From the NCBI RefSeq assembly GCF_963921235.1, contig NC_086097.1:13516001-13580000 (forward strand): a stretch of DNA of 64,000 bases. The letters run 5' to 3'. Below the pieces are notes generated by a model that was not told where the DNA came from, did no database searches, and saw only the letters and a list, made by a program, of their open reading frames with translations. Within the stretch, counting starts at the first letter, position 1. Every line of letters starts with the position of its first letter. Source of the DNA: Mobula hypostoma. Taxonomy: Eukaryota. The position numbers and the translations under genes are program-made. This document shows positions 2,470 through 61,660 of the stretch, piece after piece.

Positions 2470-2585
2470 GTACTGCCGATATTTCAGGCCGAGACCCTTC
2501 GGCAGGACTGGCCTTCAGAGTTCCTCCAGCATTTTGTGTGTGTCACGTGGACTTCCAGCATCTGCAGATTTTCTCTTGTTTGTGA
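2470..2585. mobile_element. Penelope pseudo-LTR fragments in inverted arrangement (decayed hammerhead motif)
   Basis: tttcaggccgagacccttcggcaggact joined to gagttcctccagcattttgtgtgt; same family as 19528, 22745 and 25161. Confidence 0.55.
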
Positions 2586-3109: not shown

Positions 3110-3825
3110 CTATTTAAATGGAATCAGACTAGAAAATGCTGAGATAAGATGGGACTTGGTGTTCTGCATACATGTAACATAGAGTTGATAATAAGGAAGA
3201 CAAATGCAGTATCATCATTCATTTTGAGGTGTCTAGAATATAAAAACAAAGACGTAATTCGGAGGGTCTAAAAAGCCTCATACCACACCTGGAACACTGC
3301 AAACAATTTTGAACTCTGTATCTATGGAAAGAGGTGGAGGCCCTGGAGAAGGTCCAGAGGAGGGACACGAGAATGATCCTGGGGGTGAAAGGTTTAACAT
3401 ACAATTAGTGTTTGATGGTTCAACATGCGCTCAGTGGGGTTCAGAATGATGAGGGGGGTAATCTCATTGAAACCTACGGACTATAAAAGGCCTGAATACA
3501 GTAAGCATGCCAAGGGTATCTTCATTAGTATTGAGTCTAAGATTTGAGGGCACATCCGCAGAATATAAGGACATCCCTTTAGAACTGAGGTAAGAGGAAT
3601 TTCTTCAGCCAGACAGTGGAGAATGTGTGGATATTGCAGCTACAGTGGGTTGTGGAGGCCAGTTCACAGGATGTATCTAAGGGCAGGGATTGATAGGTTT
3701 TTGATTGATGTAGGGTTAAGCCTTCTGGGAAGTAGGCAGGGGAACAGGGTTGAGAAATAAAAAGTCATGATTGAAAAGTGGACCAATCTTAATGGGCTGA
3801 ATGGCCTAATTCTACTTCCATATAT
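3110..3825 (+). mobile_element. Old CR1 LINE 3' fragment
   Basis: Decayed LEKVQRRxTRMIxG and RNFFSQxVxNxW segments and a CR1 3'UTR. Confidence 0.7.
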
Positions 3826-5600
3826 TGGACCACTGAACAATGATGCTGATAACTTAGTAATGGGGACAAAGAAATGGCAGATGAACTTAATGAGTACTTT
3901 GCATCAGTCTTCACAGTGGAAGACACTAGAAGTGTGCCAACCTTTCCGTGACTGTCAGGGAGTAGGAGTGAATGCCATTGTTATTACAAAAGAAGAAGTG
4001 CTAGGCAACCACAAAGCTCTTAAGATGGATAAGACAGCTGGACCAGATGGACTACATCCCAGAGTCTTGAGAGAGGTTGCTGAAGAGATAACAACTGTAT
4101 TGGTCATGATCTTTCAAGAATCACTTGATTCTGGCATGATCCCAGAGGACTGGGAAATTGCAAATGGCACTCCACTCTTTAAGAAGGGAGGAAGCAAAAG
4201 AAAGGAAGTTATAGGCCAGTTAGGCTAACCTCAGTGGCTGGGAAAGTGTTGGATTATATTACTATGGAAGAAGTTTCAGGGTACTTGGAGACTAATGATA
4301 AAATAAATCAAGGTCAGCATGGTTTATGAAAACGGAAATCTTGTCTGACAAATCTGTTCCTCGAGTAAGTAACAAGCAAGGTGGACAAAGAGAGGCAGAG
4401 GATATCATTTACTTGGATTTTCAAAAGGCATTTGACAAGGAACCACAAATCAGGCTGCTTAACAAGATAAAATCCTATGGTATTATAGGAAAGATACTGG
4501 CATGGATAAGGGAATGACTGACAGGCAGGAGGAAGCGAGTAGGAATAAAGGGGTTTTCTGGTTGGATGCTAGTGACTAGTGGTGTTCCTTAGGGGTCAGT
4601 ATTGGGACCGCTACATTTCATATTGTCTGTCAATGATTTGGATAATGGAATTGATTGCTTTGTGGCAAAGTTTGTGGATGATACAAAGATAGGTGGATGG
4701 GTAGGTAGTGCTGAGGAAGCAATGCGATTTCAGCAGGACAAACAAATTAGAAGAATGAACAAAAATGGCAGATGGAATACAGTGTTGGGAAATGAGTGAT
4801 AACACATTTTGGTAAAAGGAACAATAGTGCAGATATTATTTAAATGGGGAGAAATTTCAAACATCAGAGGTGCAGAGGGACTTAGGAGTCCTCCTGCAAG
4901 CCCCAGAAGGTTCATTTACAGGCTGAGCCTGTGGTAAAGAAGGCAAATGGAATGTTTGGCATTTATTTCAAGCGGAATAGAATATAAAAGCAGAGAGATA
5001 ATGCTGAGGATTTATAAGACACTAGCCAGGCTGCATTTGGAGTATTGTCAACAGGTTTGGGCCCCATATCTCAGAAAAGATGTGTTGTCATTGAAGAGAG
5101 TCCAGCGGAGGTTCACAAGGATTATTCTGGGAATGAAGGGGTTAACATACGAGAAAAGTTTGGCAGCTTTGGGACTGTATTGACTGAAATTTAGAAGAAT
5201 GTGAGGGGATCACATGGAAACCTATTGAATGTAGAAAGGACTTGATAAGGTGGATGTGGAGAAAATGTTTCCTATGGTCGGGGTAGCCAGAACTAGAGGG
5301 CACAGTCCCAAAATTGAGGGGCCATCTTTTAGAACAGAAGTGAGGAGGAAATTTTTTAGCCAAGAAGTGGTAAATCAGTGGAATGCTCTGCCACTGACTG
5401 TGGTGGAGGCCAAGTCCAAGGGAATATTTAAGGCGGAAGTTGATAGTTTCCTGATTGGTCAGGGCATCAAAGGATATGGCAAGAAGGCAGATGTACGGGG
5501 TTGAGTGGGATCCAGGATCAGCCATGATGGAATAGCGAAGCAGACTTGATGGGCTGAGTGGCCTAATTCTGTTACGTCTTATGGTTTATGGTCTTGTGGT
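3826..5600 (+). mobile_element. 5'-truncated CR1 LINE (ORF2 RT pseudogene)
   Basis: GPDGLHPRVLREVAEEI, IYLDFQKAFDK, KFVDDTKIGG, LEYCQQVWAPY, RRKFFSQEVVNQWNALP spread across frameshifted ORFs; ttatggt tail. Confidence 0.92.
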
Positions 5601-6089
5601 CTCAGTAGGGAAAGTAATGAGGGGAGTTTATTTGGCCTTAATTGCCAATAGTGCGAAATAATAAAGTAGGAAAGTTTTCACGCTATTTTACAGAGAAATG
5701 CTGAGACTGGAATTGCAGGACTTCATAGTATCACATACAAAATATTGAAGGAACTGAGTATGTCAGGCAGCATTTATGGGAATGAATAAAGAGTTGATGG
5801 CTCAGGTCGAGACCCTTCATCAGGACTTGATGGAATTAAGACTTGGAGGACTTCATACAGTTTTTTGGTTTCATGTTCTCTACACTGAAATTGTGAAGGT
5901 TGTGTCATTGAATATACTCAAGGCAAAGGAGAACTGGCATTGGAACTGAAAGAGAATCAGAGGGCATGGCGACAGTACAGGAAGGTAGCCATGATGGTGA
6001 CTGGCTCTGAAGCCAAGCAAGCTCAGAGAAAACTCACTCGGCTGCTCTCTCTCTCTCTCTCTCTCATCACCTTGCACCACTTCGAGACC

Positions 6090-6756
6090 GATGTGAACCC
6101 ACTGAAAGCATCCAGCTCAAATGGGGTGCTGGCTGAGCACTAAAGATCGGTGCTGGTTACCTGGCTGGAGTGCTCACCAATATCTTTAACCCCTTGCTTC
6201 AGCAGTCTCAGGTATCCACCTGCTTCAAACATGTTTCAATTATACCGGTGCCTAAGAAAAACGTGGTAACCTGCCTGAATGACTATCGTCCAGTAGCACT
6301 TACATCCACTGTGATGAAGTGCTTTGAGAGGCTCGTGTTGAAACATATCAATTCCTGCCTGGGAAAAGACTTGGATTGGCTCCAGTTTGCTTATCCGCAG
6401 AATGTACCATCTCATTGACTCTTCACTCAACTCTAGAACATCTGGATGCAAGGTGCATACATCAGGATGATTTTTATTGAAGACGGCTCAGCATTCAATA
6501 CTATCATCCCCTCAAAACTAATCAATAAGCTTCAAGACCCTGGCCTCAATACCTCCTTGTATAATTGGATCCTTGATTTCCTGACTTGCAGACCTCAGTC
6601 AGTTCAGATTGACAACATCTTCTCCACAATTTCCATCAGCACAGGTGCACACAAGGCTGTCTGCTTAGCCCCCCGCTCTACTCACTTTACACTTCTGACT
6701 GTGAGGCTAAGCACAGCTCCAATGTGATATTTAAGTTTTCTGATGATACCGCTGTC
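6090..6756 (+). mobile_element. Rex1/Babar-type LINE RT fragment, left part (split by Gypsy insertion)
   Basis: [44 protein letters not shown]; ends KFSDDTAV at the LTR junction. Confidence 0.85.
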
Positions 6757-7249
6757 TGTCAGTACCTTCAGTTGAACTTTGTCTTTTTCTGTGTTTCTCC
6801 CTAGCTATCAGTCTGTGGTTTTGTATTGCTATGTGTTCCTGTCCCCACTCCTGCTCTACTCCGGCCCCTGTATTACTGAGTACTGCATCTCTCACCTGCT
6901 TCTCATTTTTACCTGTATTGCTGCCACCTGTGTCTCATTGTGCTCCACCTATCACCTGCCTCTCTGTTTATTCTCAGTGTATTTCAGTCCTGTGTTTTCA
7001 CCTGTTTGTTGTTAGATTGTGCCAGTGAGTTTTCCTGAGCCTTTCCAACATTTGTATCTGAACTCTGTCTGAACAAATATTGACTCTGCCTGTTTCCTGA
7101 TTCTGGTTTTTGGATTTCTCTGGATGTTTTGATATCTGCCTGAACTTTGATACTGACTTTGTTTGCATCTTGGAATTTGTTACTCAATTAGTATCACTGT
7201 GTGCACAGTTCTGGGTCTGTGATTGGATCCCTGCTTCAGTGCCCTGACA
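6757..7249 (+). repeat. 5' LTR
   Basis: Starts tgtcagtacc, ends gccctgaca; aligns with 11498-11985 (7 differences in the first 60 bp counted by eye). Confidence 0.95.
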
Positions 7250-7261
7250 GTACAATCTGGC
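7250..7261 (+). promoter_or_regulatory. Self-complementary primer-binding site (Tf1/sushi type)
   Basis: gtacaatctggc directly follows the LTR, lacks the TGG of a tRNA PBS, and pairs with LTR sequence gccagattgtgc (11751-11762) and gttagattgtgc (7011-7022). Confidence 0.75.
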
Positions 7262-7265
7262 CAGA

Positions 7266-8254
7266 ATGGATTCACGAGACCCTGGTCTTCTGAGAGCTGC
7301 CCTGGAACAACAGGGAGTGATACTAAGGAGACAGCAGAACCAGTTGGACTCTGTGTTCAAGGCAGTGGAGTTGCTTTCTGCCAATATAGCTGATCTTGTA
7401 GCCCAGACTCAGTCACTCCATCTGTCCCAGAGTGCCCATCAACATTCTGCAACTGCAACTTCTGCCCTGCCCCCTGTGTCCTCGTATGTTCCTCCTGTCC
7501 AAGAGCCCTGTCTGCCTCCTCCAGAAAAGTACTCAGGTGTGCCTGGTACCCTGCTGCTTTTTCTTTCCCAGTGCACCCTCATTTTTGAATTACAGCCAAC
7601 AACGTTTCTGACTGATCGAGCCAGGGTAGCCTACATCATCACCCAACTGTCCGGTTGGGTGAGAGAATGGGGAATAGCTGTCTGGGAGGCAGGCTCCCCT
7701 TTTTGCAGTAGTTTTCAGTTATTTTCCAAGGAGATGAGAAAAGTGTTTGCTCCAAACATGGGAGAGAGGCTGCCAGTGAAATGCTGCACATGCACCAGGG
7801 GTGCAGATCTGTGTCAGATTATGCCATAGAGTTCCAGACCCTAGCCACCTGCAGTGGCTGGAACTCAGAGGCATAGTATGACATCTTCCTGAATGGCCTC
7901 TCTGAAGACATCAAAGATGAGCTGGTCAACCAGGACCTTCCTGCCACCTTTGAAGCCCTGGTGGATTTGGCCATCCGTATTGATGTTCACCTCCAGCAGC
8001 ACTGCAGAGGGAGGGGTTCCAGAGGGTGCCTAGGGGCACTGGGTGAGTTCCAAACTTCTCATCAGTCTACATTGCCCTACCATTTGCCTCCATCTACAAT
8101 TCCTGTTCCAGGGCTCGAGGCTATGTGTGTTGATCGTACCCGCCTGACGCCAACTGAAAGACAAAGGAGAATCAGCACCCGCTCCTGTCTGTACTGTGGC
8201 CAACCAGACCACTTCATCTCCACCTGCCCAGTAAAAGCCAGTGCTCACCAGTAG
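7266..8254 (+). pseudogene. gag: gag (frameshifted) with CCHC zinc knuckle
   Basis: PPPEKYSG, RARVAYIITQLSG, and CLYCGQPDHFISTC; broken between ORFs 7266-7829 and 7961-8254. Confidence 0.9.
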
Positions 8255-11200
8255 GACAAGGAGTACTGGTGAGCGTGACCCCTGTCTGACACTTCTCGAC
8301 GCACTCACTCTCATACCTGCTTCTCTGGAGTGGGGCGGCCAACGGCGAGCACTCTCCGTCTTGGCTGATTCTGGTGCAGAGGGGTGTTTCCTCGATTCCG
8401 GCTTGGCTGCCCAGTGGGGACTACCCACATCTGCTTTCCAGTCACCATTGATGGCCAACGCCTTGAATAGTCAGTGACTGGCTAACATCACCCATGCCAT
8501 GGCCCTGGTGAGTCTCAGTTTATCCAGCAACCATCACGAACAGTTAACCCTTTGTTATTGACTCTCCTCAAGCTCCCATTGTCCTGAACCATCCCTGGTT
8601 AGTTAAACACAACCCCCACATTGACTGGCTTATTCGCAAGATTGTAGGCTGGAGCACACTCTGTCACTCCCACTGCCTCCACCACGTTCAGATCCCCTTG
8701 TCTCCAAGACCAGATCACCTCCACCCCACCCCAAGGAATTTCTGGACCTTAATGCCATCCCTCCTGAATACATGGAACTCAAAGCTGTGTTCAGCAAGTC
8801 CCTGGCCACTTCCCTACTGCCTCATCATCCATATGATTGTGCCATTGACCTCTTGCCTGACACATCTCCCCCAAGGGGCTGCCTGTATTCCCTGTCTGTA
8901 CCTGAAACAGACGCCATGAGTAAGTACATTCAAGAGTCTCTGGCTGCAGGTATCATCGGGCCGTCTTCCTCCCCTGCTGGTGCCGGTTTTCACTTTGTTG
9001 AACAGAAGGACGGCTCCTTGCGTCCGTGCATTGATTACTGGGGACTGAATGAAGTCACTGTTAAGAACTGTTGCGCTCTTCCACTCATGACCTCTGCATT
9101 TGGACTACTGCAAGGAGCCTCACTTTTCACCAAGCTTGATCTCCATAATGCCTACCACCTTGTCTGCATCTGCGACGGGGACGAGTGAAAGACGGCCTTC
9201 AACGCCACCTCAGGCCATTACGAGTAACTGGTCACGTCATTCAATCTCATTAATGTCCCTGCCATCTTCCAAGCCCTGGTAAATGACGTTCTCAGGGATA
9301 TACTGAACCAATTTGATTTTGTGTATCTCGATGTCATTTTGTTTTTTTTCTCTAAGACCCTTGCTGAACACACAGGTCGTGTCCGCAGAGTTCTCCAGCG
9401 CCTTCTGGAGAACCAACTCTTCGTGAAGGTTGAGAAATGTGAGTTTCATCACAATACCGTCTCCCTCCTGGAGTATGTAATTTCAGGTGGTTCCATTCAG
9501 ATGGACCAACACAAGGTCTAGGCAGTGGTCGAATGGCCCCAACCTGCAACTCATTGGGAGTTGCAACACTTCTTGGGCTTTGCTAACTTCTATCACTGCT
9601 TCATCAGAAATTACAGTACACTGGCTGCACCACTCACTGCCCTTACCTCATCTGCTGTCAGATTCTCTCGGTCCCTTGCTGCTGAAAAAACATTCTCTGA
9701 CCTGAAGGAATGTTTCACCTCTGCCCCCATCCTGATTCAACCTGACACCGACCAGCAGCTCCTTGTGGAGGTGGATGCGTCTGACATTGGCGTAGGAACT
9801 GTTCTTGCTCAGCACTCGGCCAAGGATGAGAAGGTACACCCCTGTGCCTTCTCTCACCGCCTCACTCCCACAGAGTGGAATTACGATGTTGGAAGCCGGG
9901 AGCTGCTGGCTGTGAAGCTAGCTCTGGAGGAGTGGAGGCATTGGCTGGAGGAAGCCAAGGTGCCATTCTTAGTCTGGACTGAATACAAGAATCTGGAATA
10001 TATCCGTACGGCCAAGTGTCTCAACTCCCGTCAAGCTCATTGGTCCCTTTTTTTCTCAAGATTAATTTTACTCTGTCCTTCGGCCCCAGTTCCAAGAATG
10101 GAAAACCTAATGCCCTCTCCTGAAGATTTCCCTCCTCTGAGACTCCTGAGGTCCCCGAAGTGAACAGGGAGGATGACAATCTTGTGGGTGCAGCACAATG
10201 GGACATTGTGCAAGCTTCTCAACAGAACAAGGCAGGCCCTATCAATGCCCCACTAACTGTGTTTATGTTCCCAGCTCTGTCCGTTCACAGGTATTGCAGT
10301 GGCCTCATTCTTCCTGGTTATCCTGTCACCCTGGAACCAAGCGTACTCAGGCCTTCATCAATCGGCGGTTCTGGTGGCCCTCCATGGGAGATGACATCCG
10401 CAACTTTGTCTCAACCTGCTCAGTCTATTCTCAAGGCAAGAACTCTAACTGGTCACCCGCTGGTCTGTTACAACTCCTGTCTATCCCCAAGAAACCCTGG
10501 TCCCACTTTGCCCTGGATTTTGTCACCAATCTTCCCATCAGATGATAACACCATCATTCTCAAAGTAGTTGATCGTTTCTCCAAGTCTGTACACTTCATT
10601 CCCTTACCTAAACTCCCCTCGGCCAAAGAAGCAGCCAGATTACTAGTACTGCATGTTTTTAAATTACATGGTTTACCTGTAGGTGTTGTATCAGACAGGG
10701 CTCTCAATTCACATCCAGCTTCTGGAGGACATTCTGTAATCTTCTGGGTGCCTCTGAGTCTGTCTTTAGGACTTCACCCACAGACCAATGGCCAGACCGA
10801 GCAGGTCAACCAACAGCCAGAGACGGTATTTTGGTGTCTGGTCTCTTAGAACCCTTCCGCGTGGAGTCAACAGCTACCCTGGGCTGAATACACCATAAAC
10901 TCTCATCCGTCCTCTTCCACCGGTCTGTCCCCCTTCGAGTGCTGCCTTGGCTACCAATCTCCACTGTTTTCTGCCCAGGAGGAGGAGTTTGTTGTTCTAT
11001 CTGCTGAGGCATTCATCCACCGTTGTCAGCGGACGTGGAGACACACTCACTCTGCCCTTCTCCGTGCCTCTGCTAAGATCAAGGACCAAGCATCAAGCTG
11101 ATCGCCATCGCTCCAAAACCCCTTTTTACCACCCAGGACAGCATGTGTAGCTTTCAACCCAAGACCTGCCCCTCCAGGTGGATTCCCGCAAGCTCACCCC

Positions 11201-18919: not shown

Positions 18920-19810
18920 ACAGTCACGGAGTCAGAAAAGTGCAGCCCAGAAACAGGCCCTTTGGCCCATCTAGTCTGTGCCGGATCATTTAAACTGCCT
19001 ACTCCTATTGACCTGCACCAGGACCATTGCCCTCCATGCCCCTACCACCCATGTACCCACCCAAACTTCTCTTCAATGTTGAAATTCAGCTTGCATCCAC
19101 CACTTGTGCTGGAAAGACAATCCATATTCTCATGATCCTTTGCATGAAGAAGTTTCATTTCATGGTCCCCTTAAATTTGTCACTTTTGACACTTAACCCA
19201 TGAGATCTGGTTGTAGTTCCCTCAACCTCAATAGAAAAAGACTGCTTGCATTTACCCTATCTATACTCCTCATGATTTTGTATACCTCGATCAAATCTCC
19301 CCTCAAGCTTTTATGTTCCAAGGAATAAAGTTCTAACCTATTCAGTCTTTCCTTATAATTCAGGTCCTCCAGTCATAGCAAGATCTTTCATCCTTATTTT
19401 CATCTTTCCTGCAGGTAGAGGACCAGAACTGCACATGATACTCCAAATTAGGCTTCACCAATGTTTTATACAGCTCCAACAAAAAATCCCATCTCCTGTA
19501 CTCAGTGCTTTGAATAATGAAGGCCAACACAAAATAATCTGCAGATGCTGGGGTCAAAGCAACACTTACAACACGCTGGAGGAACTCAGCAGGTCGGGCA
19601 GCATCCGTGGAAACGATCAGTCTACATTTTGGGCCGGAACCCTTCGTCACGATCAGTCCTGACGAAGGGTTGCGGCCCAAAACATTAACTGGTCGTTTCC
19701 ACGGATGCTGCCCGACCTGCTGAGTTCCTCTAGCGTGTTGTGAATAATGAAAGTCAATATGTTAAATAATTTTTCTTTACGACGCTATCTATCTGCAACA
19801 CCACTTTCAG
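18920..19810 (-). mobile_element. CR1 3' fragment, interrupted by a palindromic Penelope insertion
   Basis: Minus strand LELYKTLVKPNLEYHVQFWS; resumes after 19740. Confidence 0.8.
19528..19740. mobile_element. Palindromic Penelope pLTR-only insertion
   Basis: ~85-bp inverted arms (19568-19652 and 19655-19741); 17-bp TSD tgaataatgaaggccaa/tgaataatgaaagtcaa. Confidence 0.85.
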
Positions 19811-21700: not shown

Positions 21701-21797
21701 AAGTCCTGATGAAAGGTCTCGGGCCTGAAACATTAACTGTACTTTTTTCCATAGATGCTGCTTGGCCTGCTGAGTTCCTCCAGCATTTTGTGTGTGT
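21701..21797 (+). mobile_element. Penelope pLTR copy with a decayed hammerhead motif
   Basis: agtc-CTGATGA-aaggtctcgggcct-GAAAC-att-aactg followed by gatgctgc..gagttcctccagc. Confidence 0.7.
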
Positions 21798-22744
21798 TGG
21801 TTAGTTTTGTTAAATCTGAATGAATATGAGTAAAAGTCTGTTAGGTATTTCTTCAAAATTACAAACAATCATGAAATTGCTACAACAGATATTCATGGGA
21901 TAAAGTTTTTAAAAATGAATTTTAATGAAGTCAAGGAATGAACTTCCAGAGCCAAGAACAAAGTACTGCAAATCTAGGTCTTGTGATCACACAAGACCTT
22001 CTTAAACTGAGAAGGAATTGCTCCAGTCAGACCTGTGTGTGCAACACTCTTTACTTATTTTTGTTAGTGGATCAGACCCTTAATTCCATATCTGTACCTT
22101 AACCTCAAAGTCTATATTTTTATATGATGCTTTGTAATTGTCAAATGTTGCTGTTTTTTATTGCATACCACACCAACATACCACAGTTAATTCCCAATAT
22201 GTGTAAATGTTTGTGTTGAATAATTGATTCTTGATCCTTAAATATAGGAGAAAGAAAGGCTCACCTCTGGTTAATTTCCACCTGTGTGCTGAAATGTTAG
22301 AGACCATTCAAGTGATATGTCAGGAAACAACATCAAACCACATGTCAATGCCAGAGTACTCAAACTACAATTTGCTTGAACATTGTGGGAAACATCACTA
22401 GGAAGTTAAATAACTGTTTAACCCATTTGACAGGAGTAGGGGGGTTTATGGTTAGGTGGTTTCGTGGTAGGCGAAGGTGGGTGTATGTGTGTAGGTGTGC
22501 AAGCATGGTGTGATTTGCAGTTATTTTGTGGTGTGCTTGCAGCGGCCATGTCAGAAAGTGGGAATGGAGCTGATTATTTTGGGTAAGTGAATCTGCAGTA
22601 ATGTATGATTGTAATCAAGCACGGTCATCCTTGATGCACAGTGGCTTTGTCCTGCCTCAGTAAATCCAAATCGTTTGACACAAACTTTCCATGTACAGTT
22701 TGCTCAAAGTCCAAGAGATCACTACAAAATAAAAAATCAAATAA

Positions 22745-22935
22745 CAAGAGAAAATCTGAAGATGCTGGAAATCCAAAGCAACACACACAATATGCTGGAG
22801 GAAATCAGCAGGTCAGGCAGCATCTGTGGAAAAGAGCAAATGGTCAACGTTTCAGGCTGATGAAGCGTCTTGGCCTGAAACATCGACTGGTTGCAGTTTG
22901 CCATGGATGCTGCCTGGCCTGATGATTTCCTCCAT
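22745..22935. mobile_element. Palindromic Penelope pLTR-only insertion
   Basis: Inverted arms tggaggaaatcagcagg..gtttcaggc / gcctgaaac..atttcctcca; 11-bp TSD aaatcaaataa (22734-22744 and 22936-22946). Confidence 0.8.
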
Positions 22936-24526: not shown

Positions 24527-25160
24527 CTTCTGTACTCTTAGTAAAAAGATCACTGCATACCTCAGCCATATACTTCAGCATGGTGCTAGTACTCAGGGGC
24601 CTTAGGGTAGTTTGACGGAAATACTGCAACAATATGATGATTAATTTTTCATCCTCTGAGAGAAAAGGAAGGACATTCATTTATTACATCTCTCCTGACC
24701 CCTCAGTTCATCCAAAGACACTCTTCGCCCTATTAAATAATGTTGAAGTGTAGACGCTGATGTTGTAGGAAGGACAACAGTCAGTATCAACAAAGATCCC
24801 ACTAATCCGCAGCACAATAATACCTAATAATCTGTTGATGGTGAATGTTGGTTGAGAGATGGATGAGTCTGTCAGTGTTGAGATCCCGTGTGTCATTCCT
24901 TCTCCTGACTTATCCAATCAAACGTTCAGAAATGTCTCTGGTGCTGTCAGAACAGGAGCCAATTTAGGTCAGGAACAGTAAATACATCAGTCTAAATCCT
25001 GGAGCGCACAATCCAATGACATTTTGAACTGAAGCAATTCAAGAAGGTACTTCACCACCATTTTCTCAAGGACAATTGGGAATGGGCAATAAATGCCAGT
25101 GACATATATATCTATATATATGTGTCAAAAAATTGAAAAAAAATATTATTAATCTGTTAT

Positions 25161-25708
25161 AACCGCAAACATGAGGAATTCTGCAGATGCTGGAAATTCA
25201 AGCAACACACATCAAAGTTGCTGGTGAACGCAGCAGGCCAGGCAGCATCTCTAGGAAGAGGTACAGTCGATGTTTTGGGGGAGATCGAATGGGGTACGAG
25301 GGGGAGGTGGAGCATTAGTGGAAGTTACCCCATCCATTATTTATTTATTTATATACACACATTCTTTCTCTCTCTCTCCTTTTTCTCCCTCTGTCCCTCT
25401 GACTATACCCCTTGCCCATCTTCTGGGTTTCCCCCCCTCCCCCTTTTCCTTCTCCCTGGGCCTCCTGTCCCATGATCCTCTCGTATCCCTTTTGCCTACC
25501 ACCTGTCCAGCTCTTGGCTCCATCCCTCCCCCTCCTGTCTTCTCCTATCATTTTGGATCTCCCCCTCCCCCTCCCACTTTCAAATCTCTTAACAGCTCTT
25601 CCTTCAGTTAGTCCTGACGAAGGGTCTCAGCCTGAAACGTCGACTGTACCTCTTCCTAGAGATGGTGCCTGGACTGCTGCGTTCACCAGCAACTTTGATG
25701 TGTGTTGC
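25161..25708 (+). mobile_element. Penelope 3' end with inverted pLTR
   Basis: ~80-bp inverted repeats (25200-25278 and 25631-25710) around a pyrimidine-rich PLE 3' region; 12-bp TSD ttaatctgttat. Confidence 0.85.
25610..25645 (+). ncRNA. Minimal type-I hammerhead ribozyme motif
   Basis: agtc-CTGACGA-agggtctcagcct-GAAAC-GTC-gact: stem I agtc/gact, conserved CUGANGA and GAAA boxes, short stem II, GUC cleavage triplet. Confidence 0.7.
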
Positions 25709-25974
25709 TTAATCTGTTATTATTTTACGGTTAAAGAGAGGTAGCCAAGATGTAGTCTTGACAACTGGACTGAATTTGGAGGTGACACCTGGCTCTGTCA
25801 AGCACTTCTCCCTTCTCCCAGATGTTAGGAAAACAATATTATGAGTAGGTTCACTCCAGTTATTGGCTGTGTATAAAACTTTACGGTAAACTTGGCTTTT
25901 TATAAAATTATTCTAGCATAATAAAACTTGTTTCTTTACAGAAATGAATTAGCCCAGACATACTTTGTTGTTCC

Positions 25975-26289: not shown

Positions 26290-26430
26290 GACGGGCTCCT
26301 GATGAGTGGTCTTGGCCCAAAATATTGACTGCTCATTTCTTTCCACTGATACTGGCTGAACTGCTGGCTCTCTCTAACATCATATGCATATTGCTTAGGA
26401 TTTCCAGCATCTGCAGATTCTCTTGTGTCT
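26290..26430 (+). mobile_element. Penelope pLTR copy (decayed hammerhead motif)
   Basis: cctgatgagtggtcttggcccaaaatattgactg ... ttccagcatctgcaga. Confidence 0.55.
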
Positions 26431-27864
26431 GGAATTGAAGGGCTGAGGAGCTGAAAGCACTGCCTTCAGTCACGGAGCAACAGATATTGATGATATGCAA
26501 GGCCAGACGTGGAGGGTTTTTCCACTGAAAGAAAGCTAGGGAGGTCAGGAAGGATTTGAAAATCAAGGTGAAAAGTTTATATCTGGGACACTGTCAGTAT
26601 AAAAGCCAATTCAGGCTAGTAATTAGAGCAGTGAATAAGAGTGACTGTGAAGTAGGACACAGGCAACTAAACTTGGGAGAAAAAGCAAACAACAAGATGA
26701 AAAAAACACAGAAGGGGTTAAACGACTGAATAGCCACCTGTTGATGGTGACTTTACAAGCTGATACTGTGACCGCAAAGCAAACCACAAGGCATTTAATA
26801 GCTAATTTGAGTGGAACCTGTGAAGGACTGAAAGACACCAATGCGCTCGACACATTGTGTGAGAGAAGGCTTCAGTTAATTTCTGTACAAGCTGCCAGAA
26901 TCAGGCATGCACCAGTTATCAAACCACCAGTGCTTCCTGGAAGTGGGGAGCAGACGTAGGCCGTACATACCTGCTATCTAGTCTGTACTGCAGTACAGTA
27001 TGGCAGGCGAAGGCAAGACTGAGTTATCGACATTACATCAGATCTTAGAACTATTATCTCTTCTGACTGCATAACATATTGGCTTTGGGCCAAAGATACT
27101 GAGAAGCCCCAGACCGATATAAATGATTTATGCTGTTTTGCAACCCACTCTCAACTCTTCTGTCTCACTTTAGAGTCATAGAGTAATTTTATGAAGAGTA
27201 GTTGTTGATGCACCTATTCCAAAGAGATAATCAAAATAGAGTTCATGGCTAGTATGAGGGAGCAGTTGCGAATACGAGAGGGCCTAATTTGAAGGAGATC
27301 AAAGGAAAGCATGAGGGAGATATCAGAGGTAGGTTTTTACACAGAGAGTTGTAGGTACATGGAATGTGCTGTCAGGATTGGCAATAAAGACAGATATATT
27401 ACGGACATTGAAGAGACCCTTAGAAAGTGCATGGATGAGAGTAAAGTGGAGAATGATGTGTGAGGGAAGGGACAAAATGCACAGTAGTCACCGTGCAACG
27501 AATCACTGATGAGGCCCCCTATCTGTTTCACAACTGAGTTTCCATAATGATGGCCAGTCGACTGATTGGTAAGTATATAAAGGCCAAGCCTACAGAGGAC
27601 ACACCACAAGTGAACAGAACTTTGATGATGTCTCCTTGTATGGTGACGGAACCCTGGCAAATGGAGTGTCAAGATTGGAGAACAAATCAACCCAACCAGA
27701 GATAGCTCACTAGTAGGAAAAAGGTATTGTGAAGGAGCCACATGAGGAGATCAGTCTGCTTTGTTCGCTGTCTTCTCATATGCTTTTACCTTTGACCCCC
27801 AGGAGCCATTCAAATTTCTGATTATGGTAAAAGGGAATCGAAACTGTCAGAATTAGCAATGCTG

Positions 27865-28110: not shown

Positions 28111-28686
28111 GATGCATGCACGGACATGCAGACGCGGACGCACAGACGCGCACCCACGCACGTGCGCGCACGGATTCGCACGCATGCACGCGCACAAAAA
28201 AAAAGAATTAGCAATACTAAATTATCTTTGTTGTTCACCTGTGGAAACATGCAGAATGCAAATAGATTCTCATTCTTCACTTCCACGGAATATTAACCCT
28301 ATGTGCAGTTGCTCAGAACTGCTTTGGAATATTATAAAAAATTTCTTCATTAATAAAATTAAGAATGCAAAATTAAGTGCTGGATTAAGCAGACTTAGAT
28401 GCAAGCCTTAAACTTATTCACTACTGTGAATTTTGGTTAACTACAGTTTATCTTGTTAATTCACATTTTGTTAATACTTCAAAGTTCAAAATTTAAGGTA
28501 AATTTATTATTGAAGTATGGATATATCACCATATACAACTCTGAGTTTCATTTTCTTGCGGGCATTCACAGTAGAACAAAGAAATACAGCAGAATAAATG
28601 CAAAATTACACACAAAGACTGACAGCAATCAACATGCAAAGGAAAACCAAGTGTGCAAATAAAAAAATGATCATAATAAATATAAG

Positions 28687-28785
28687 CAACACACAAAATG
28701 CTGGAGGGACTCAGCAGGTCAGGCAGCATCTATGGAAAAGCACAAACAGTTGACATTTCTGGCTGACACTTCTCATCAGGGATTC
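28687..28785 (-). mobile_element. Single Penelope pLTR insertion
   Basis: Minus strand cctgatga..gaaatgtcaactg; 12-bp TSD aataaatataag (28675-28686 and 28786-28797). Confidence 0.75.
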
Positions 28786-32999: not shown

Positions 33000-35500
33000 A
33001 CCATTTCTGTCCCCCTTAACAATAAGTACTGCTGTCTGAGTACTGTTGGGGGGTACGGCCTACATGGGGGAAGCAACAGTGGCCGCACCTCTGCTGCAAA
33101 GTCTGGCCCTGTGGCTCAGAAGGGTAGGGAAAGGAAGAAGGCAGCAGTAATAGGGGACTCTACAGTTAGGGGGTCAGACAGGCGATTCTGTGGATGCAGG
33201 AAAGAAACACGGATGGTAGTTTGCCTCCCAGGTGCCAGGGTCTTTCTGATCGCGTCCACAATATCCTGAAGTGGGCAGGTGAACAGCCAGATGTCATGGT
33301 ACGTATTGGTACCAATGACATAGGTAGGAAAAGGGAGGAGGTCCTGAAAACAGACTACAGAGAGTTAGGAAGGAAGCTGAGAAGCAGGACCCCAAGGGTA
33401 GTAATCTCGGGATTACTGCCTGTGCCACACGACAGTGAGTGTAGGAATAGAGTGAGGTGGAGGATAAATGTGTGGCTGAGGAATTGAAGCAGCGGGCAGG
33501 AATTCAGAATTCTAGATCATTGGGACCTTTTTTGGGACAGGTGTGAACTGTACAAAAAGGACGGGTTGCACTTGAATCTGAGGGGGACCAATATCCTGAG
33601 AGGGAGGTTTGCTAAGGCTATTGGGGAGAGTTTAAACTAGAACTGCTGGGGGCTGGGAACTGAACTGAAGAGACGAAGGAAGGGGCAGTTGGTTCACAAG
33701 TAGAGAAAGCTTGGAGACAATGCAAGAGGGAAGATAGGCAGGTGATAGAGAAGGGATATGCTCAGACCGATGGTTTGAGAAGTGTCTATTTTAATGCAAG
33801 AAGCATTATGGATAAAGCAGCTGAGCTCAGAACGTGGATCAGTACTTGGAGCTATGATGTTGTGGCCATTACAGAGACATGGATGGCTCAGGGGCAGGAA
33901 TGGTTACTTAGTGTGCCAGGCTTTAGATGTTTCAGAAAGGACAGGGAAGGAGGTAAAAGAGGTGGGAACAAGGCGCTGCTGATCAGAGATAGTCTCATGG
34001 CTGCAGAAAAGGAGGAAGCAATGGAGAGATTGTCTACTGAGTCTCTGTGGGTGGAAGCTAGGAATAGGAAAGGATCAATAACTCTACTGGGTGTTTTTTA
34101 TGGACCACCCAGTAGTAACAGGGACATTGAGGAGCAGATAGGGAGACAGATTCTGGAAAGTTGTAATAATAACAGGGTTGTCATGGTGGGAGGTTTTAAT
34201 TTCCCAAATATTGATTGGCATCCCCCTAGAGCAAGGGGTTTAGATGGGATGGATTTTGTTAGGTGTGTTCAGGACGATTTCCTAACACAGTATATAGATA
34301 AGCCTACAAAAAGAGAGGCTGTACTTGATCTGGTATTGGGAAATGAACCTGGCCAGGTACCAGGTCTATCAATGTGAGAGCATTCTGGAGATAGTGATCA
34401 CAATTCTTTCTCCTTTACCATAGCATTGGTGAAGGATAGGAACAGACGAGTTAGGGAAACGTTAAACTGAAGTAAGCGGAAATATGAAGCTATCAGGCAG
34501 GAACTTGGAAGCATAAATTGGGAACAGATGTTCTCGGGGAAAGGTATGGCAGAAATCTGGCAAATGTTCAGGGGATATTTGTGTGGAGTTCTGTATTGGT
34601 ACGTTCCAATGAGACAGGGAAAGGATGATGGGGTACAGGAACTGTGGTGTACAAAGGCTGTTATAAATCTAGGCAAGAAGAAAAAAAGCTTATGAAAGGT
34701 TCAAAAAAGCTAGCTTAAGGCTAACAGGAAGGATCTCAAGAAAGAAATTAGGAGAGCCGGAAGGGGCCATGAGAAGTCCTTGGCAAGCATGATTAAAGAA
34801 AACACTAGGGCATTCTACAAGTACGTGAAGAGCAAGAGGATAAGACGTGAGAGAATAGGACCAATGAAGTGTGACAATGGAAAAGTGTGTATGGAACTAG
34901 ACGAGATAGCAGAGGTACTTCATGTATACTTTGCTTCAGTATTCACTACGGAGAAGTATCTTGGCAATTGTAAGGATGACTTACAGTGGATTGAAAAGCT
35001 TGAACATATAGACATTAAGAAAGAGGATGTGCTGGAGCTTTTGTGAAGTATCAAGTTGGATAAGTCTCCGGGACTGGACGAGATGTACCCTAGGCTAATG
35101 TGGGAAGCGAGGGAGGAGATTGCTGAACGGCAGGGGATGAGAGGTGTATAAAATGATGAGAGGCATTGATTGTGTGGATAGTCAGAGGCTTTTTCCCAGG
35201 GCTAAAATGACTAACATGAGAGGCCACAGTTTGAAGGTGCCTGGAAGAAGGTACAGAGGAGATGTCAGGGGTAAGCTTTTTTTATGCAGAGAGTGTTGAG
35301 TGCGTGGAATGGGCTGCCGGCAACGGTGGTAGAGGCGGATACGATAGGGTCTTTTAAGAGACTCCTGGATAGATACATGGAGCTTAGAAAAATAGAGGTC
35401 TATGGGAAGACTAGGTAAGTTCTAAAGTAAGTACATGTTCAGCACAGCATTGTATGCCCAAGGGGCTGTGTTGTGCTGTAGGTTTTCTATGTTTCTATTT
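33000..35500 (+). mobile_element. CR1 LINE with SGNH-esterase ORF1, APE endonuclease and deleted RT
   Basis: ORF1 VIGDSTVRG, IGTNDIG, DGLHLN; ORF2 YFNARS, VVAITETW, GFNFPNIDW, LDLVLGN; jumps at ~35130 from the pre-RT region to the ORF2 C-terminus; ttctatgt tail. Confidence 0.92.
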
Positions 35501-45009: not shown

Positions 45010-45645
45010 ACACAACAAAGATGGTCGATAAGGTGGTTAAAAAGGCTTATGGAATGCTTGCTTTTACTAGTTGAGTCAATGAGTTCAAAAGCCATGAGGT
45101 TATGTTGCAGCTTTGTAAAACTCTGGTTAGGCCACATCTGCAGTATTGCATGCAGTTCTGGCCGCCCCACTATAGGAAGGATGTTGTGGATTTGGAGGGG
45201 GTCACCAGGATGCTGCCCAGTTTAAAGGGCATGTGGTATATCGAGAGGCTGAACAAACTTGGGTTGTTTTCTCTGGAGCACCAGAGGCGGAGGGGAGATC
45301 TGATAGAGGTTTATAATATTATCAGAGGCAGAGATAGAGTGGACAGAGAGTATCTGTTTCCTAGTGTTGAAATATCTAGTACCAGAGGATATGCATTGAA
45401 GGTGAGAGGAGGTCGGCTCAACAGGGATGTGAGGAGTAAGTTTTTTACTCAGAAAGTCATAGACGCCTGGAGTGTGCTGCCTGGTATGGTGGGTAGAGAC
45501 AAATACAATGGAGATGTTTGGATAGGCACATGGATATAAGGAGTATAGAGGGATATGGACTTGGTATAAGTAGAAGGGGTTATGTTTCGGTGTTTTTGAT
45601 TTGATTTTTGGCTGTTCTTGTGCTGTACTTTTCTATGTTCTATGT
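45010..45645 (+). mobile_element. CR1 3' end
   Basis: KTLVRPHLQYCMQFW..RRGDLIEVY..FFTQKVIDAW; ttctatg tail. Confidence 0.88.
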
Positions 45646-48054: not shown

Positions 48055-49710
48055 GACCATAAGATAGAAGAGCAGAATTAGGCCATTCAGCCCACCGAGT
48101 CCGCTCCGCCATTTCATCATGGCTGATCCAATTTTCCTCTCAGCTCCAATCTCATGACTTCTCCTCATATCCCTTCATGCTCTGACCAATCAAGAATCTA
48201 TCAACCTCTGCATTAAATATATGTAAAGATTTGGCCTTCACAGCAGCCTGTGTCAAAGATACACTACCTTCTGACTGAAGGAATTCCTCCTCATCTCCAT
48301 TCTAAAAGGACACCCCCTCTATTGAGATTGTGTCCTCTTGTCTCGTACTCTCCCATCACAGGAAACATCCTCTCCATATCCACTCTACCATTCAATGGAT
48401 TTCAATGAGGTCACCTCTCATTCTTCTGAATTCCAGTAAATATAGGCCTAGAGCCATCAAATGCTTTTCATATGACAAGCCATACAATACTCGAATCAGT
48501 TTAATGATCCTTCCTGGAGCCCTCCCTAGTTTTAGTACATTCTTTCCAAGATGAGGGGCCCAAAACTGCTCACAATGCTCCTAGTGAGGCCATACCTGTA
48601 CTTTAAAAAGTCTCAACATTACATCTTGCTTTTCTATTCTAATACTTCTGAAATAAATGATAACATCGTATTTGCCTTCCTTACCACAGAATCAACCGGT
48701 AAATTAAACTTTAGGGAATCCTGGACAAGAACTCCCAAGTCCCTTTGCACCTCAATTTTTTGTATTTTCTCTCCCTTTAGAAAATAGTCGACCTTTTCAT
48801 TTCTTCTACCAAAATACATGACCATGAACTTACTGACACTATATTCCATCTTCCATTTCTTTGCCCATTCTCTAAATCTGCCTAAGTCCTTTTGCAGTCT
48901 CTCTACATCCTCAAATATACCTTCCCCTCCGTCTGCCTTCATATGGTCTGCAGACTTTGAAACAAAGCTATCAATTGCGTTATCCAAATAACAGACATAT
49001 AACGTAAACAGAGTCGGTCCCAACACAAACCCTTGTGGAACACCACCCGTCAACGGCAGCCAACCAGAAAAGGTTCCGTTATTCCCACTCTTTACCTCCT
49101 TCCAATCAGCCACTGTTTACCCATCCTAAATATACCATGAACTCGTAGCTTGTTAAGCAGACTCATGTGTAGCACCTAGTCGAAGCCTTCTGAAAATCCA
49201 ACTACACAACATCAACAATTTTCATTTGTTGTTTCTTCAAAGAATTCCAAAGATTTGTCAGGCAAGATTTTCCCTTGAGGAAACCATACTGACTATGGCC
49301 TACTTTATTATGTGCCTCCAAGTTCCCTGGGACTTCCTCCTTGATAACCAACTTCAAGATCTTCCCAACCACTGAGATCAGACTAACTGCTCTATAGTTC
49401 CCTTTCTTCTGCCTCCCTCCCTTCTTTAACAGCGGAATAACATTTATAATTTTCCAGTCTTCTGGAACTATCCCAGAATCTCGTGATCCTTTAAGGATCA
49501 TTACTAATGCCTCTACAATCTCTTCAGCCACCTCTTTCAGAACCCTAGTGTGTACACTATTTGGTCCAGGTGACTTATCTACCTTCAGACCATTCAGTTT
49601 CCCAAGAATCTTCTTTTTAGTAATGGTAACTTCACATACTTTATGACCCCTGACACCTGGAACTTCCACCATACTACCAGTGTCTTCCACAGTGAAGACT
49701 GATGCATCGT
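48055..49710 (-). mobile_element. 5'-truncated CR1 LINE
   Basis: KSPGP..RVLKEVAEEI, QYGFLKGKSCLTNL, GVPQGFVLGP, RDLGVLV; CR1 tail at 48055. Confidence 0.92.
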
Positions 49711-51141
49711 GATACATCATTCTATCATTCTACACCCTAACAGTCCCAATGCTCAGTTGGTACATGTGTATTTTCACATTTCTATGAGAACCCGTGTACT
49801 CTATAAAAACGTTTTAATCTTCCATGAGATCCTGACAAGCACCCATTCTATCACACTTTAATCCCGATGAAGGATCTTGGCCTGAATTATCAACTAATTA
49901 TCCTCCTCCATAGATGCTGCCTGACCTGCTGAGTTCCTCCAGCATTTTGCGTGTGTGTGTGTTGCTCTGGATTTCCAGCACCTGCGGATTATCTTGTGAA
50001 GGGACACACTCAACAATTCGGGAAGAGCTTCACCATCTCCTGCCCCCCTACCACCATCTGATTTCTGAATGGACATTGAACCTATGAACACTATCTCACT
50101 TCTTTTTCATTTCTATGTTTGTTGCATTACTTATTGAATTTAGCTTTTTAATATATATTTACGCTAATTCATAGTTTTTTTTAAACTAATATATTGCACT
50201 GTACTGTTGCCACCAAATCAACAAATTTCACGACAAATGCCGGTGATATTAAACCTGATTCTGATTATTTTCCAATGTACTTCTATCCCAAATTTTCATT
50301 CCTTGAAATACCTTTGTCATTTCCCAAGTATTGACTTCATAGAAAATGTAAACCAAGTGTCGGTGAAAGGGGAGTTGTTTCATCTCTTGTGGTAGCAGGA
50401 GAAGATATTGTAAGAAGAGAAGTAAGTGCTGTTAGAGACTGAAGTGTGAACCAGATCCTCCTTTGAAATGCAGAAAAGAGAAGGAGGTAGTGACATTTCT
50501 GGTAGTAGCCTCCTGTTGAAGGTGTCAGGATGATCTGCTGAATGTGAGTCCCTGGGGAGTAAAAGGTAAGGACGTTAGGAAAGTTTTTCTGTGTGTAACA
50601 AGAAAGGGTAAAAGCAGAAGTAAGGGAAGAAGAATAAAATCTGTTTAGAGATGTTCCCATTCTAATAATGAATACAAGAAGACCCTTGGAAACATTGACA
50701 TGCAGATCAAAGACAGTATTGAGCAGAAATGGACAACCTGTGAGGAACTAATAGGAAGTTCTGCCTGGGTTACCAGTGGAAGTAGAATCAATTGTAGCTT
50801 TCCAAATGGAGCTGGATAAACATCAAAACAGAAGGAAATGTTCAGGGCTCAGGGAAAGGGTGACGATGTGTAATGGAACTAAATGGATTAGTCTTATATT
50901 TGCTAGTTGTAGACTCATTGAGCTGAATAGTTCTCTTGCATGCTATAGCTACCGAACTATCCTTAACTATTCATCACTCCATTGATCATACCTCTCATGA
51001 AGAGCATCCTTTTAGCTGTTTTCTGCAGTAAGTATAGATCCTTCATCACCAGCTCCAGGTTGCCTCCTGGCTTCTTGATCAGAGAATGGCCTTAATATGA
51101 ACCTATTGTTTGTGGAAACCATCCCCTTCTCCCTATAGCTG

Positions 51142-60389: not shown

Positions 60390-60719
60390 ACATCCTTTAG
60401 TTTTATTTTCCTCTGATATCAGGAAGGATTCCTGTAGTCGACTCTATCTTTACACTCCCCTCACAGTTTTATTCAGCACTTTTTCTCCTCTGCTCCACAG
60501 TGAATAGACATAGCTTGTCCACTTTCTCTTCACAGTAGAACTTCTCTGCCCAAGCAGCTTTTCTTGTGAACTCCTCTGCACCCTCCTCAGCCTTATGACA
60601 TCATCCCCATAACACCAGAACTGTCCTCAATATCTCATTTAAGGTCTGATCTATGTTTTATCAAGTGCAAGCATAACACCCCTACTATTGCATTTAATAC
60701 CCCAACCAATAAAGACCAA

Positions 60720-60960
60720 AAGGATGAGGTTATGGATTACTTGGTGACACAGGACAAGATAGGGCAAAGTCAGCATGGTTTCCTTAAGGGAAAGTCTTGC
60801 CTGATGAGCCAGTTGAAAGTCTTTGTGAATATTACAAGTAGGATAGATAAAGGGGATGCAGTTGGTGTTGCATATTTGGACTTTCAGAAGGACTTTGACA
60901 AGGTGCCAAACCTGAGGCTGTTTACCAAGCTGAGAGCCCATGATATTACAGGAAAATTAC
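60720..60960 (+). mobile_element. CR1 RT fragment
   Basis: QHGFLKGKSCL..YLDFQKDFDKVP. Confidence 0.85.
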
Positions 60961-61660
60961 TGTTGTGTATGTGGCCTGGTTACACAACAATACTATTAAT
61001 AAAAACGTGGGAGATAGGAGCTAAGTTTCAGGGTTCTTTACTGGCATAAAACAAAATCAGTACACAAGTACAGATCAATATGCGTCTAATAGCACATGCT
61101 CAATATGGGCCTAATAGCGCATTCACGACACATATTAGTCCCTTATTATAATCTAGGCTATATGGTACACTCTACCTCTTTTATTTTAATAGTGCATCAA
61201 CTTTTTTTTTACTGGGGCATTATGCTAAACAAATATGTTTACAATTAACATACAAACGCCTACCATTTGTTTACTTAGCAACTTAATAATATCAAATTAT
61301 AACAAAGTAATGTAATAATATCGAGTTATAACAAGCCATTTTTTTTTACTTTTGGTCTAAGACCCATTTACAACTCAAGCCTCTGGGGATTGTCCATCAC
61401 AGAAGCAAATAGGTCTTCTCTCTATTGTATGGAATAAATTAAACAATCCACAAATTGGCAGGTTCCAGCCATAAAGAGTAGTCACCTCCTTCTTGCAAAG
61501 ATGATGAAAGCAAAGTGAAATCCATGAAAAGGTGAATGTTTCTCTTAAAAATATGTACAATTATCAAAACTGAGATGGCATTGGAAAGTGTCTTCAAATA
61601 TGTGGTCTGTGTCCTAGCCTCTGTAGGACTTGAAAATGGATTAATCTCCAATTGGCATTT
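60961..61660 (-). mobile_element. Possible Gypsy remnant (3' LTR, PPT and end of internal region)
   Basis: Minus strand purine tract aaaataaaagaggtagag (61170-61187) followed by TG; ends ..caaca at 60961 where the CR1 breaks; possible ORF end NPQRLEL*. Confidence 0.35.

What the first reader, a model, noticed from the sequence alone, without database searches (positions are those of the whole stretch)
25610..25645. Intact minimal hammerhead ribozyme core inside a Penelope-like pseudo-LTR
Seen: agtc-CTGACGA-agggtctcagcct-GAAAC-GTC-gact. Stem I is agtc/gact, both catalytic boxes (CUGANGA, GAAA) are intact, stem II is agg/cct (or ggg/cct with an extra A), and the GUC triplet abuts GAAAC so stem III is a self-complementary acgt. 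Established: Penelope-like elements carry minimal type-I hammerheads in their pLTRs, thought to cleave as dimers. Inference: this abundant repeat family is a self-cleaving RNA module, and this copy may still be active.
Basis: partly seen in the sequence, partly recalled or inferred. Interest (0 to 1): 0.75.

Follow-up and report, generated by a model that had tools for sequence, protein, structure and literature searches.

The report
Known Penelope hammerhead, likely silenced copy
This is a real minimal hammerhead ribozyme motif of a kind already known from Penelope-like jumping genes, but this copy is one of tens of thousands of near-identical leftovers and is likely inactive, because it has no partner nearby and its own inverted arm is predicted to pair over the cut site.

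Summary
The motif is there (25610-25645, +): both core boxes, the extra A, a 4-bp stem II, the ACGU palindrome in place of helix III, C17 = 25641. It lies in the 3' pLTR of a Neptune-type Penelope-like element (RT plus C-terminal GIY-YIG), with at least 84,856 near-identical motifs in this 3.5-Gb genome. Diverged relatives keep the core and covary in stem I (15 of 16 motifs pair). This is the published min-HHR of Penelope pLTRs (PMC4209133). The claim that this copy may be active is weak: it is a 548-bp truncated, head-to-head insertion with a 12-bp target duplication, has no intact partner in the window, and its inverted arm is predicted to bury the cut site in a long hairpin. Copies show no excess of 5' ends at the cut site once microhomology is controlled (39 vs 108). 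A by-product: 76 of 76 inverted insertions with a target duplication have one tailed and one tail-less end. The scan has reported this family, its hammerhead and its two-ended priming before at other places in this genome.

The parts
25609..25646 (+). Minimal type-I hammerhead motif: stem I 25609-13/25642-46, CUGACGA 25614-20, extra A 25621, stem II 25622-25/25630-33, GAAA 25634-37, ACGU palindrome 25637-40, C17 25641 (predicted cut 3' of it)
25326..25708 (+). Forward arm: 5'-truncated 3' UTR/pLTR of the Penelope-like element, ending at the tail-less end (about +69 from C17)
25161..25279 (-). Inverted arm: tail plus pLTR 3' end, truncated inside the hammerhead (holds only its 3' half); 25200-25275 is 96% complementary to 25635-25710
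25286..25327 (-). Short inverted piece matching the element's ORF end and UTR start, at the junction of the two arms
25149..25160 (.). Left copy of a 12-bp AT-rich target-site duplication
25709..25720 (.). Right copy of the 12-bp target-site duplication

Best explanation
The motif is a genuine minimal hammerhead carried in the 3' pLTR of a very abundant Neptune-type Penelope-like retrotransposon, and this copy is a truncated head-to-head insertion in which the ribozyme is likely inactive. Shown: the motif, its place 300 or so bases after the stop of an RT/GIY-YIG ORF in intact parents, tandem pLTR-ORF-pLTR units with two motifs 3.5 kb apart, covariation of stem I in relatives, the 12-bp target duplication and the two inverted arms. 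Inferred: in tandem parent transcripts two motifs would pair through their ACGU palindromes to form helix III and cut slowly after GUC, probably with help from the element's protein; the RNA that gets copied is the uncut form, since reverse transcription starts 65-105 nt downstream of the cut site and copies run through it. Inferred for this locus: both cut ends of the target primed cDNA, one from the tail end and one from the tail-less end; both stopped early and were joined; a read-through transcript would fold the arms together and bury A13-C17 and the 3' strand of stem I.
For: Motif unique in window vs shuffles. Parent L067: pLTR with motif at 3196, 1043-codon open frame, pLTR with motif at 6709; RVT_1 E 3e-5 and C-terminal GIY-YIG E 1e-3, both below Pfam's curated cut-offs; DKG, YIDD, CX4CXXC linker and CXXC between the GIY and YIG boxes visible in the translation. 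Exact 36-mers: 32,886 with U11.1 and 4,891 with C11.1, reversed control 0; 84,856 allowing CpG decay. In 80 metagenome loci of relatives, 18 core matches picked without asking for stems gave 16 distinct motifs, 15 with stem I >=3 bp, against a permutation mean of 3.1, maximum 9 in 10,000; 90% of cells paired, 41 double-sided changes, 0 of 500 shuffles as high. Inverted arm 96% complementary, fold z -14.65. As a monomer the 38-mer prefers a fold that pairs UGAC with GUCG (-11.0 kcal/mol) over stems I+II only (-7.0). No excess of 5' ends at the cut site. Literature: PMC4209133, PMC11167929.
Against: No cleavage assay and no raw RNA reads were available. The relatives' motifs are related to each other, so the covariation counts are not independent; one of four whole-structure measures (pairs with a double change) did not exceed shuffles (237 of 500). 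Raw junction counts are higher at the cut site (302) than at +4 (81) or -3 (131); the microhomology control rests on one pair of patterns. Within this genome no stem covariation was found. The fold is a prediction; co-transcriptional folding, a transcript starting between the arms, or dimers in trans among many copies could leave some activity. Neptune membership rests on motifs, not a tree.
Confidence: 0.85

Rival explanations
1. This copy is an active self-cleaving element in a host transcript, cutting as a dimer in trans with RNA from other copies.
For: All core nucleotides are intact; tens of thousands of near-identical motifs exist, so partners in trans are conceivable; contigs guessed to be RNA hold the family.
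Against: No intact partner in the window; inverted arm predicted to sequester the cut site; G-U at 10.1-11.1; single min-HHR inactive and dimers weak in PMC4209133; the anole element's ribozyme needed its protein (PMC11167929).
Confidence: 0.07
2. In this family the motif is no longer a working ribozyme; it is kept as part of the promoter/transcript start or protein-binding region, or simply hitch-hikes.
For: The youngest subfamily has U11.1 in 56 of 56 scored copies and the U11.1 36-mer outnumbers the canonical one 6.7 to 1; no fossil of cut templates; 5 of 25 unselected young arms start at -40..-25, the motif's front edge, and 0 of 25 at the cut site; ribozyme mutants did not affect insertion in vitro (PMC11167929); Naiads thrive without the motif (PMC8557442).
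Against: All catalytic positions are still intact in the dominant variant; G-U keeps the pair and occurs in 1 of 16 relatives' motifs; conserved core plus covarying stems across relatives imply long selection on the fold.
Confidence: 0.3
3. The motif is a chance match inside a repeat.
For: No Rfam match; the fold is not unusually stable (z -1.27).
Against: Same core at the same place after the ORF in relatives of about 45-55% protein identity, with covarying stems and 0 matches in 20 shuffles of 272 kb.
Confidence: 0.01

Closest known systems
Minimal hammerheads (min-HHR) of metazoan Penelope-like elements (Cervera and De la Pena 2014, PMC4209133; parts 1-2 of 4 read, supplements searched by term)
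   Same: Type I; in the pLTR; no helix III, palindromic 15.2-16.2; extra nucleotide between 9 and 10.1; 4-5 bp helix I; mostly solo copies, some close pairs on opposite strands.
   Different: Helix II is 4 bp, not the 7-8 bp of the Schistosoma families; G10.1-U11.1 instead of the conserved G-C; at least 84,856 motifs versus about 4,000 (coelacanth) and 9,000 (Xenopus) there, counted by different methods; no cartilaginous fish term found in 2 of 3 supplementary files.
EN+ Penelope-like elements, Neptune/Nematis type (Craig et al. 2021, PMC8557442; passages read)
   Same: RT plus C-terminal GIY-YIG with CCHH-type finger, CX2-5CXXC linker, DKG motif, partial tandems, inverted 5'-truncated arm, 30-40 bp tail often at one end only.
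   Different: Here the one-sided tail is a strict rule in the sample (76 of 76) and target duplications are clear (11-18 bp, mostly 13-14).
PAc, Poseidon of Anolis carolinensis (Frangieh et al. 2024, PMC11167929; parts 1-2 of 4 and passages read)
   Same: Two insertion ends 30-40 nt apart downstream of the hammerhead; AT-rich targets (68% AT here); uncut RNA as template.
   Different: Different clade (Poseidon lacks the linker finger); in PAc the ORF starts within stem II, here the first ATG lies about 140 nt after the cut site.
Non-LTR retrozymes (bioRxiv 10.64898/2026.07.22.740005; part 1 of 5 and passages read)
   Same: Type I hammerhead derived from a PLE pLTR; reported in one chondrichthyan.
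   Different: Retrozymes are tandem arrays with a motif in each unit; this locus is a single, inverted, truncated insertion.

Membership tests
PLE minimal hammerhead | CUGANGA and GAAA boxes with NUH triplet | tested here: met
PLE minimal hammerhead | No helix III; palindromic 15.1-16.1 (ACGU) | tested here: met
   same in relatives
PLE minimal hammerhead | [quoted passage not shown] | tested here: met
   A25621; invariant column
PLE minimal hammerhead | G10.1-C11.1 pair (highly conserved, not absolute) | tested here: not met
   G-U in this copy and in the dominant variant; G-C in 4,891 exact copies and 13 of 15 aligned motifs; G-U also in one relative
PLE minimal hammerhead | Stems I and II supported by covariation | tested here: met
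   (across relatives); none seen within this genome
PLE minimal hammerhead | Located in the pLTR of a PLE | tested here: met
PLE minimal hammerhead | Self-cleavage as a dimer or with protein | not testable with these tools
   needs an in vitro assay; genomic proxy negative
EN+ Penelope-like element | Single ORF with RT and C-terminal GIY-YIG with two cysteines between the boxes | tested here: met
   (parent L067; Pfam scores below curated cut-offs)
EN+ Penelope-like element | Partial tandems, inverted pLTR, one-sided tail, target duplication | tested here: met
Neptune clade | CX2-5CXXC linker finger between RT and EN (absent in Penelope/Poseidon) | tested here: met
   against the description; does not separate Neptune from Nematis
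Neptune clade | Placement in an RT phylogeny with named Neptune elements | not tested
   no named reference sequences were at hand
Non-LTR retrozyme | Tandem array with a hammerhead in each unit | tested here: not met
   one motif, inverted arms

The most novel reading that the evidence does not exclude
Each insertion of this family is made by one two-headed complex that primes both cut target strands from two different fixed start sites on the RNA (one tailed, one tail-less, never the same twice: 76 of 76), using RNA that the hammerhead has not cut; freed from a role in making the template, the ribozyme has drifted to a G-U at 10.1-11.1 in the youngest and most successful subfamily. This would tie the two initiation sites seen in vitro for the anole element to the two ends of single insertions.
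Probability: 0.5. Interest if true: 0.5.

Novelty: new member of a known kind. Interest (0 to 1): 0.2.

Why it matters
The finding itself is ordinary: minimal hammerheads in Penelope pLTRs have been published since 2014, and this is one decayed copy among tens of thousands. The family is useful as material: its size allows counting tests on the open question of what these ribozymes do (here: no sign that cut RNA is copied) and on how Penelope elements insert (strict one-tail rule), and intact parents exist for an in vitro assay.

Tried and rejected
Rfam scans gave no hammerhead match. A search for same-genome families with other stem I letters gave 585 matches (control 10); the 100 listed look like decayed copies of the same family, no covariation. 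Fossil test of cleavage: a first pattern found 1,109 copies interrupted near the cut site, about 1% of the family; junctions exactly at +1 numbered 302 against 81 and 131 at control positions, which looked like a signal, but 0 of 30 inspected +1 copies ran on into the ORF and most were joined by 2-4 nt GAC(T) microhomology to an inverted arm; the same microhomology at a non-cut-site GAC gave 108 junctions against 39 at the cut site, so the signal was rejected. Sequencing runs: no RNA holder listed; only contigs, which cannot show ends or expression. Cofolding two copies gave a non-hammerhead duplex and cannot model the dimer. Lunse et al. 2016 (PMC5785218) is not held; only its title in a reference list was seen. 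Literature searches for twin priming in Penelope, for shark or elasmobranch Penelope hammerheads and for recent mechanism papers showed nothing further in their listings; supplements of PMC11167929 had no hit for five terms in 3 text files, figures are not held, and one supplementary file of PMC4209133 could not be searched. No host gene was identified, so whether and on which strand the locus is transcribed is open.

Full report
Observation. A descriptor asking for both boxes, both stems and an NUH triplet finds only this site on either strand; 200 shuffles gave a mean of 0.055. Rfam gives no match at gathering score and no hammerhead among 3 weak matches.

The element. The motif sits in a repeat with 1,532 first-look candidates in the 3.48-Gb genome, 40 scored. 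Longer copies extend upstream into an ORF; a protein search had 245,002 candidates, and the 101 scored are 94-100% identical. Locus L067 is a tandem: pLTR with the motif at 3196, a 1043-codon open frame, pLTR with the motif at 6709. [quoted passage not shown] PMC8557442 (passages) says the linker finger marks Neptune and Nematis and is absent in Penelope/Poseidon; I call it Neptune-type without a tree. The closest named homologues are from a bamboo shark (73% and 69%), so the host is likely a cartilaginous fish (inference).

Copy number. Two exact 36-mers occur 32,886 times (U at 11.1) and 4,891 times (C at 11.1), reversed controls 0; allowing CpG decay, 84,856. In 400 kb taken at fixed coordinates, 45 hits span the core, roughly 0.4 million by extrapolation when old families are included.

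Is it a hammerhead? In 80 metagenome loci encoding relatives, a full descriptor found 19 motifs in 16 loci and none in 20 shuffles. Picking by core letters alone gave 18 matches, 16 distinct; 15 have stem I of 3 bp or more (permutation mean 3.1, maximum 9 of 10,000) and 15 have stem II in the extra-A register. On an alignment of the window motif with 14 of those 18 matches (L298, one each of L324 and L332 as near-duplicates and the longer L308 were left out), 90% of cells pair, all 4 stem I pairs show double changes, and three of five measures exceed all 500 shuffles, while pairs with a double change do not (237 of 500). The sequences are related, so these are not probabilities. The architecture is that of PMC4209133, including the extra nucleotide and the palindrome. 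One departure: G10.1-U11.1. It is inherited at least in part: 56 of 56 scored copies of the subfamily with CG after stem I have U, and the window's own subfamily is 30 U to 23 C.

This copy. It is one 548-bp insertion (25161-25708) between copies of a 12-bp AT-rich duplication: an inverted arm holding the tail and the pLTR 3' end, a short inverted piece of the ORF end, then the forward arm. The inverted arm is 96% complementary to 25635-25710, which includes A13-C17 and the 3' strand of stem I, and the predicted fold of 25149-25720 pairs them (z -14.65). Alone, the 38-mer prefers a fold that pairs the CUGA box with the cut site (-11.0 vs -7.0 kcal/mol). Other same-family motifs in the window are damaged. 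In PMC4209133 a single min-HHR did not cleave and dimers did so weakly; in PMC11167929 the ribozyme needed the element's protein, mutants still inserted, and no RNA reads ended at the cut. Activity of this copy is therefore unlikely.

Does cut RNA leave fossils? If cut RNA were copied, arms would start at +1. Raw counts favoured this (302 vs 81 and 131), but 0 of 30 such copies ran into the ORF and most were microhomology joints; the matched control gave 108 joints at a non-cut-site GAC against 39 at the cut site. In 504 kb not chosen by junction, 0 of 25 young arms start at -3..+4 and 5 of 25 at -40..-25. So the template is the uncut RNA, as the position of the start sites downstream of the cut already requires for the last pLTR.

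How copies insert. 3' ends are bimodal, about +65 to +70 and +100 to +105 from C17. Of 123 candidate outward-facing pairs in all fetched loci, 76 have a target duplication of 11 bp or more, and all 76 have one end of each type (binomial p 1e-23 against 0.5); among the 47 without, 37 are mixed, 6 same-type and 4 run into the ORF. Many of these loci were chosen by junction searches. The one-sided tail is described in words in PMC3846280 and PMC8557442, and the two start sites and two-strand priming in PMC11167929; I did not find the strict pairing stated in the searches made. I infer priming from both cut strands at two different start sites. Earlier scan notes on this genome reach similar readings; they are not independent evidence.

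Verdict. Observation confirmed; known kind, new member; this copy likely inert. Interest 0.2.

Noticed in passing
76 loci of G000, including window 25149-25720: Every head-to-head insertion with a target duplication of 11 bp or more has one tailed and one tail-less end; duplications peak at 13-14 bp and are 68% AT.
   Followed up: yes
G000 genome-wide; window 25633: The non-canonical U11.1 variant outnumbers the canonical C11.1 variant 32,886 to 4,891 and is fixed in the youngest subfamily; contigs of two other organisms (X9, X14) mostly have C.
   Followed up: partly
unselected loci L079-L118, L165-L168: 5' ends of arms gather at the front edge of the hammerhead rather than at the cut site (5 of 25 at -40..-25); older families also lose similarity just before stem I.
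   Followed up: partly
window 2470-2582, 5802-5827, 19538-19727, 21702-21803, 22743-22924, 26296-26431, 28678-28781, 49858-49988, about 59373: About ten older, damaged copies of related pLTR ends, several as short fold-backs.
   Followed up: partly
L266, L267, L268: Some copies have lost the whole hammerhead core by a deletion between the two GTC words, or are joined there.
   Followed up: no
L067, L065, L066 and G000:C40, C5, C62: Open frames of 1,039-1,054 codons show near-intact parents of the family.
   Followed up: partly
window 7248-10849: Broken frames that look like gag, RT, RNase H and integrase of a Ty3/Gypsy-type LTR retrotransposon (family named from recall, not scanned).
   Followed up: no
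window 3761-4228, 33664-34377, 45075-45539, 48634-49729, 60570-61049: Fragments resembling CR1-type LINE ORF2 (named from recall, not scanned).
   Followed up: no
L317, L355, L366: Hammerhead-like motifs with longer palindromic helix III near PLE relatives in metagenome contigs.
   Followed up: no
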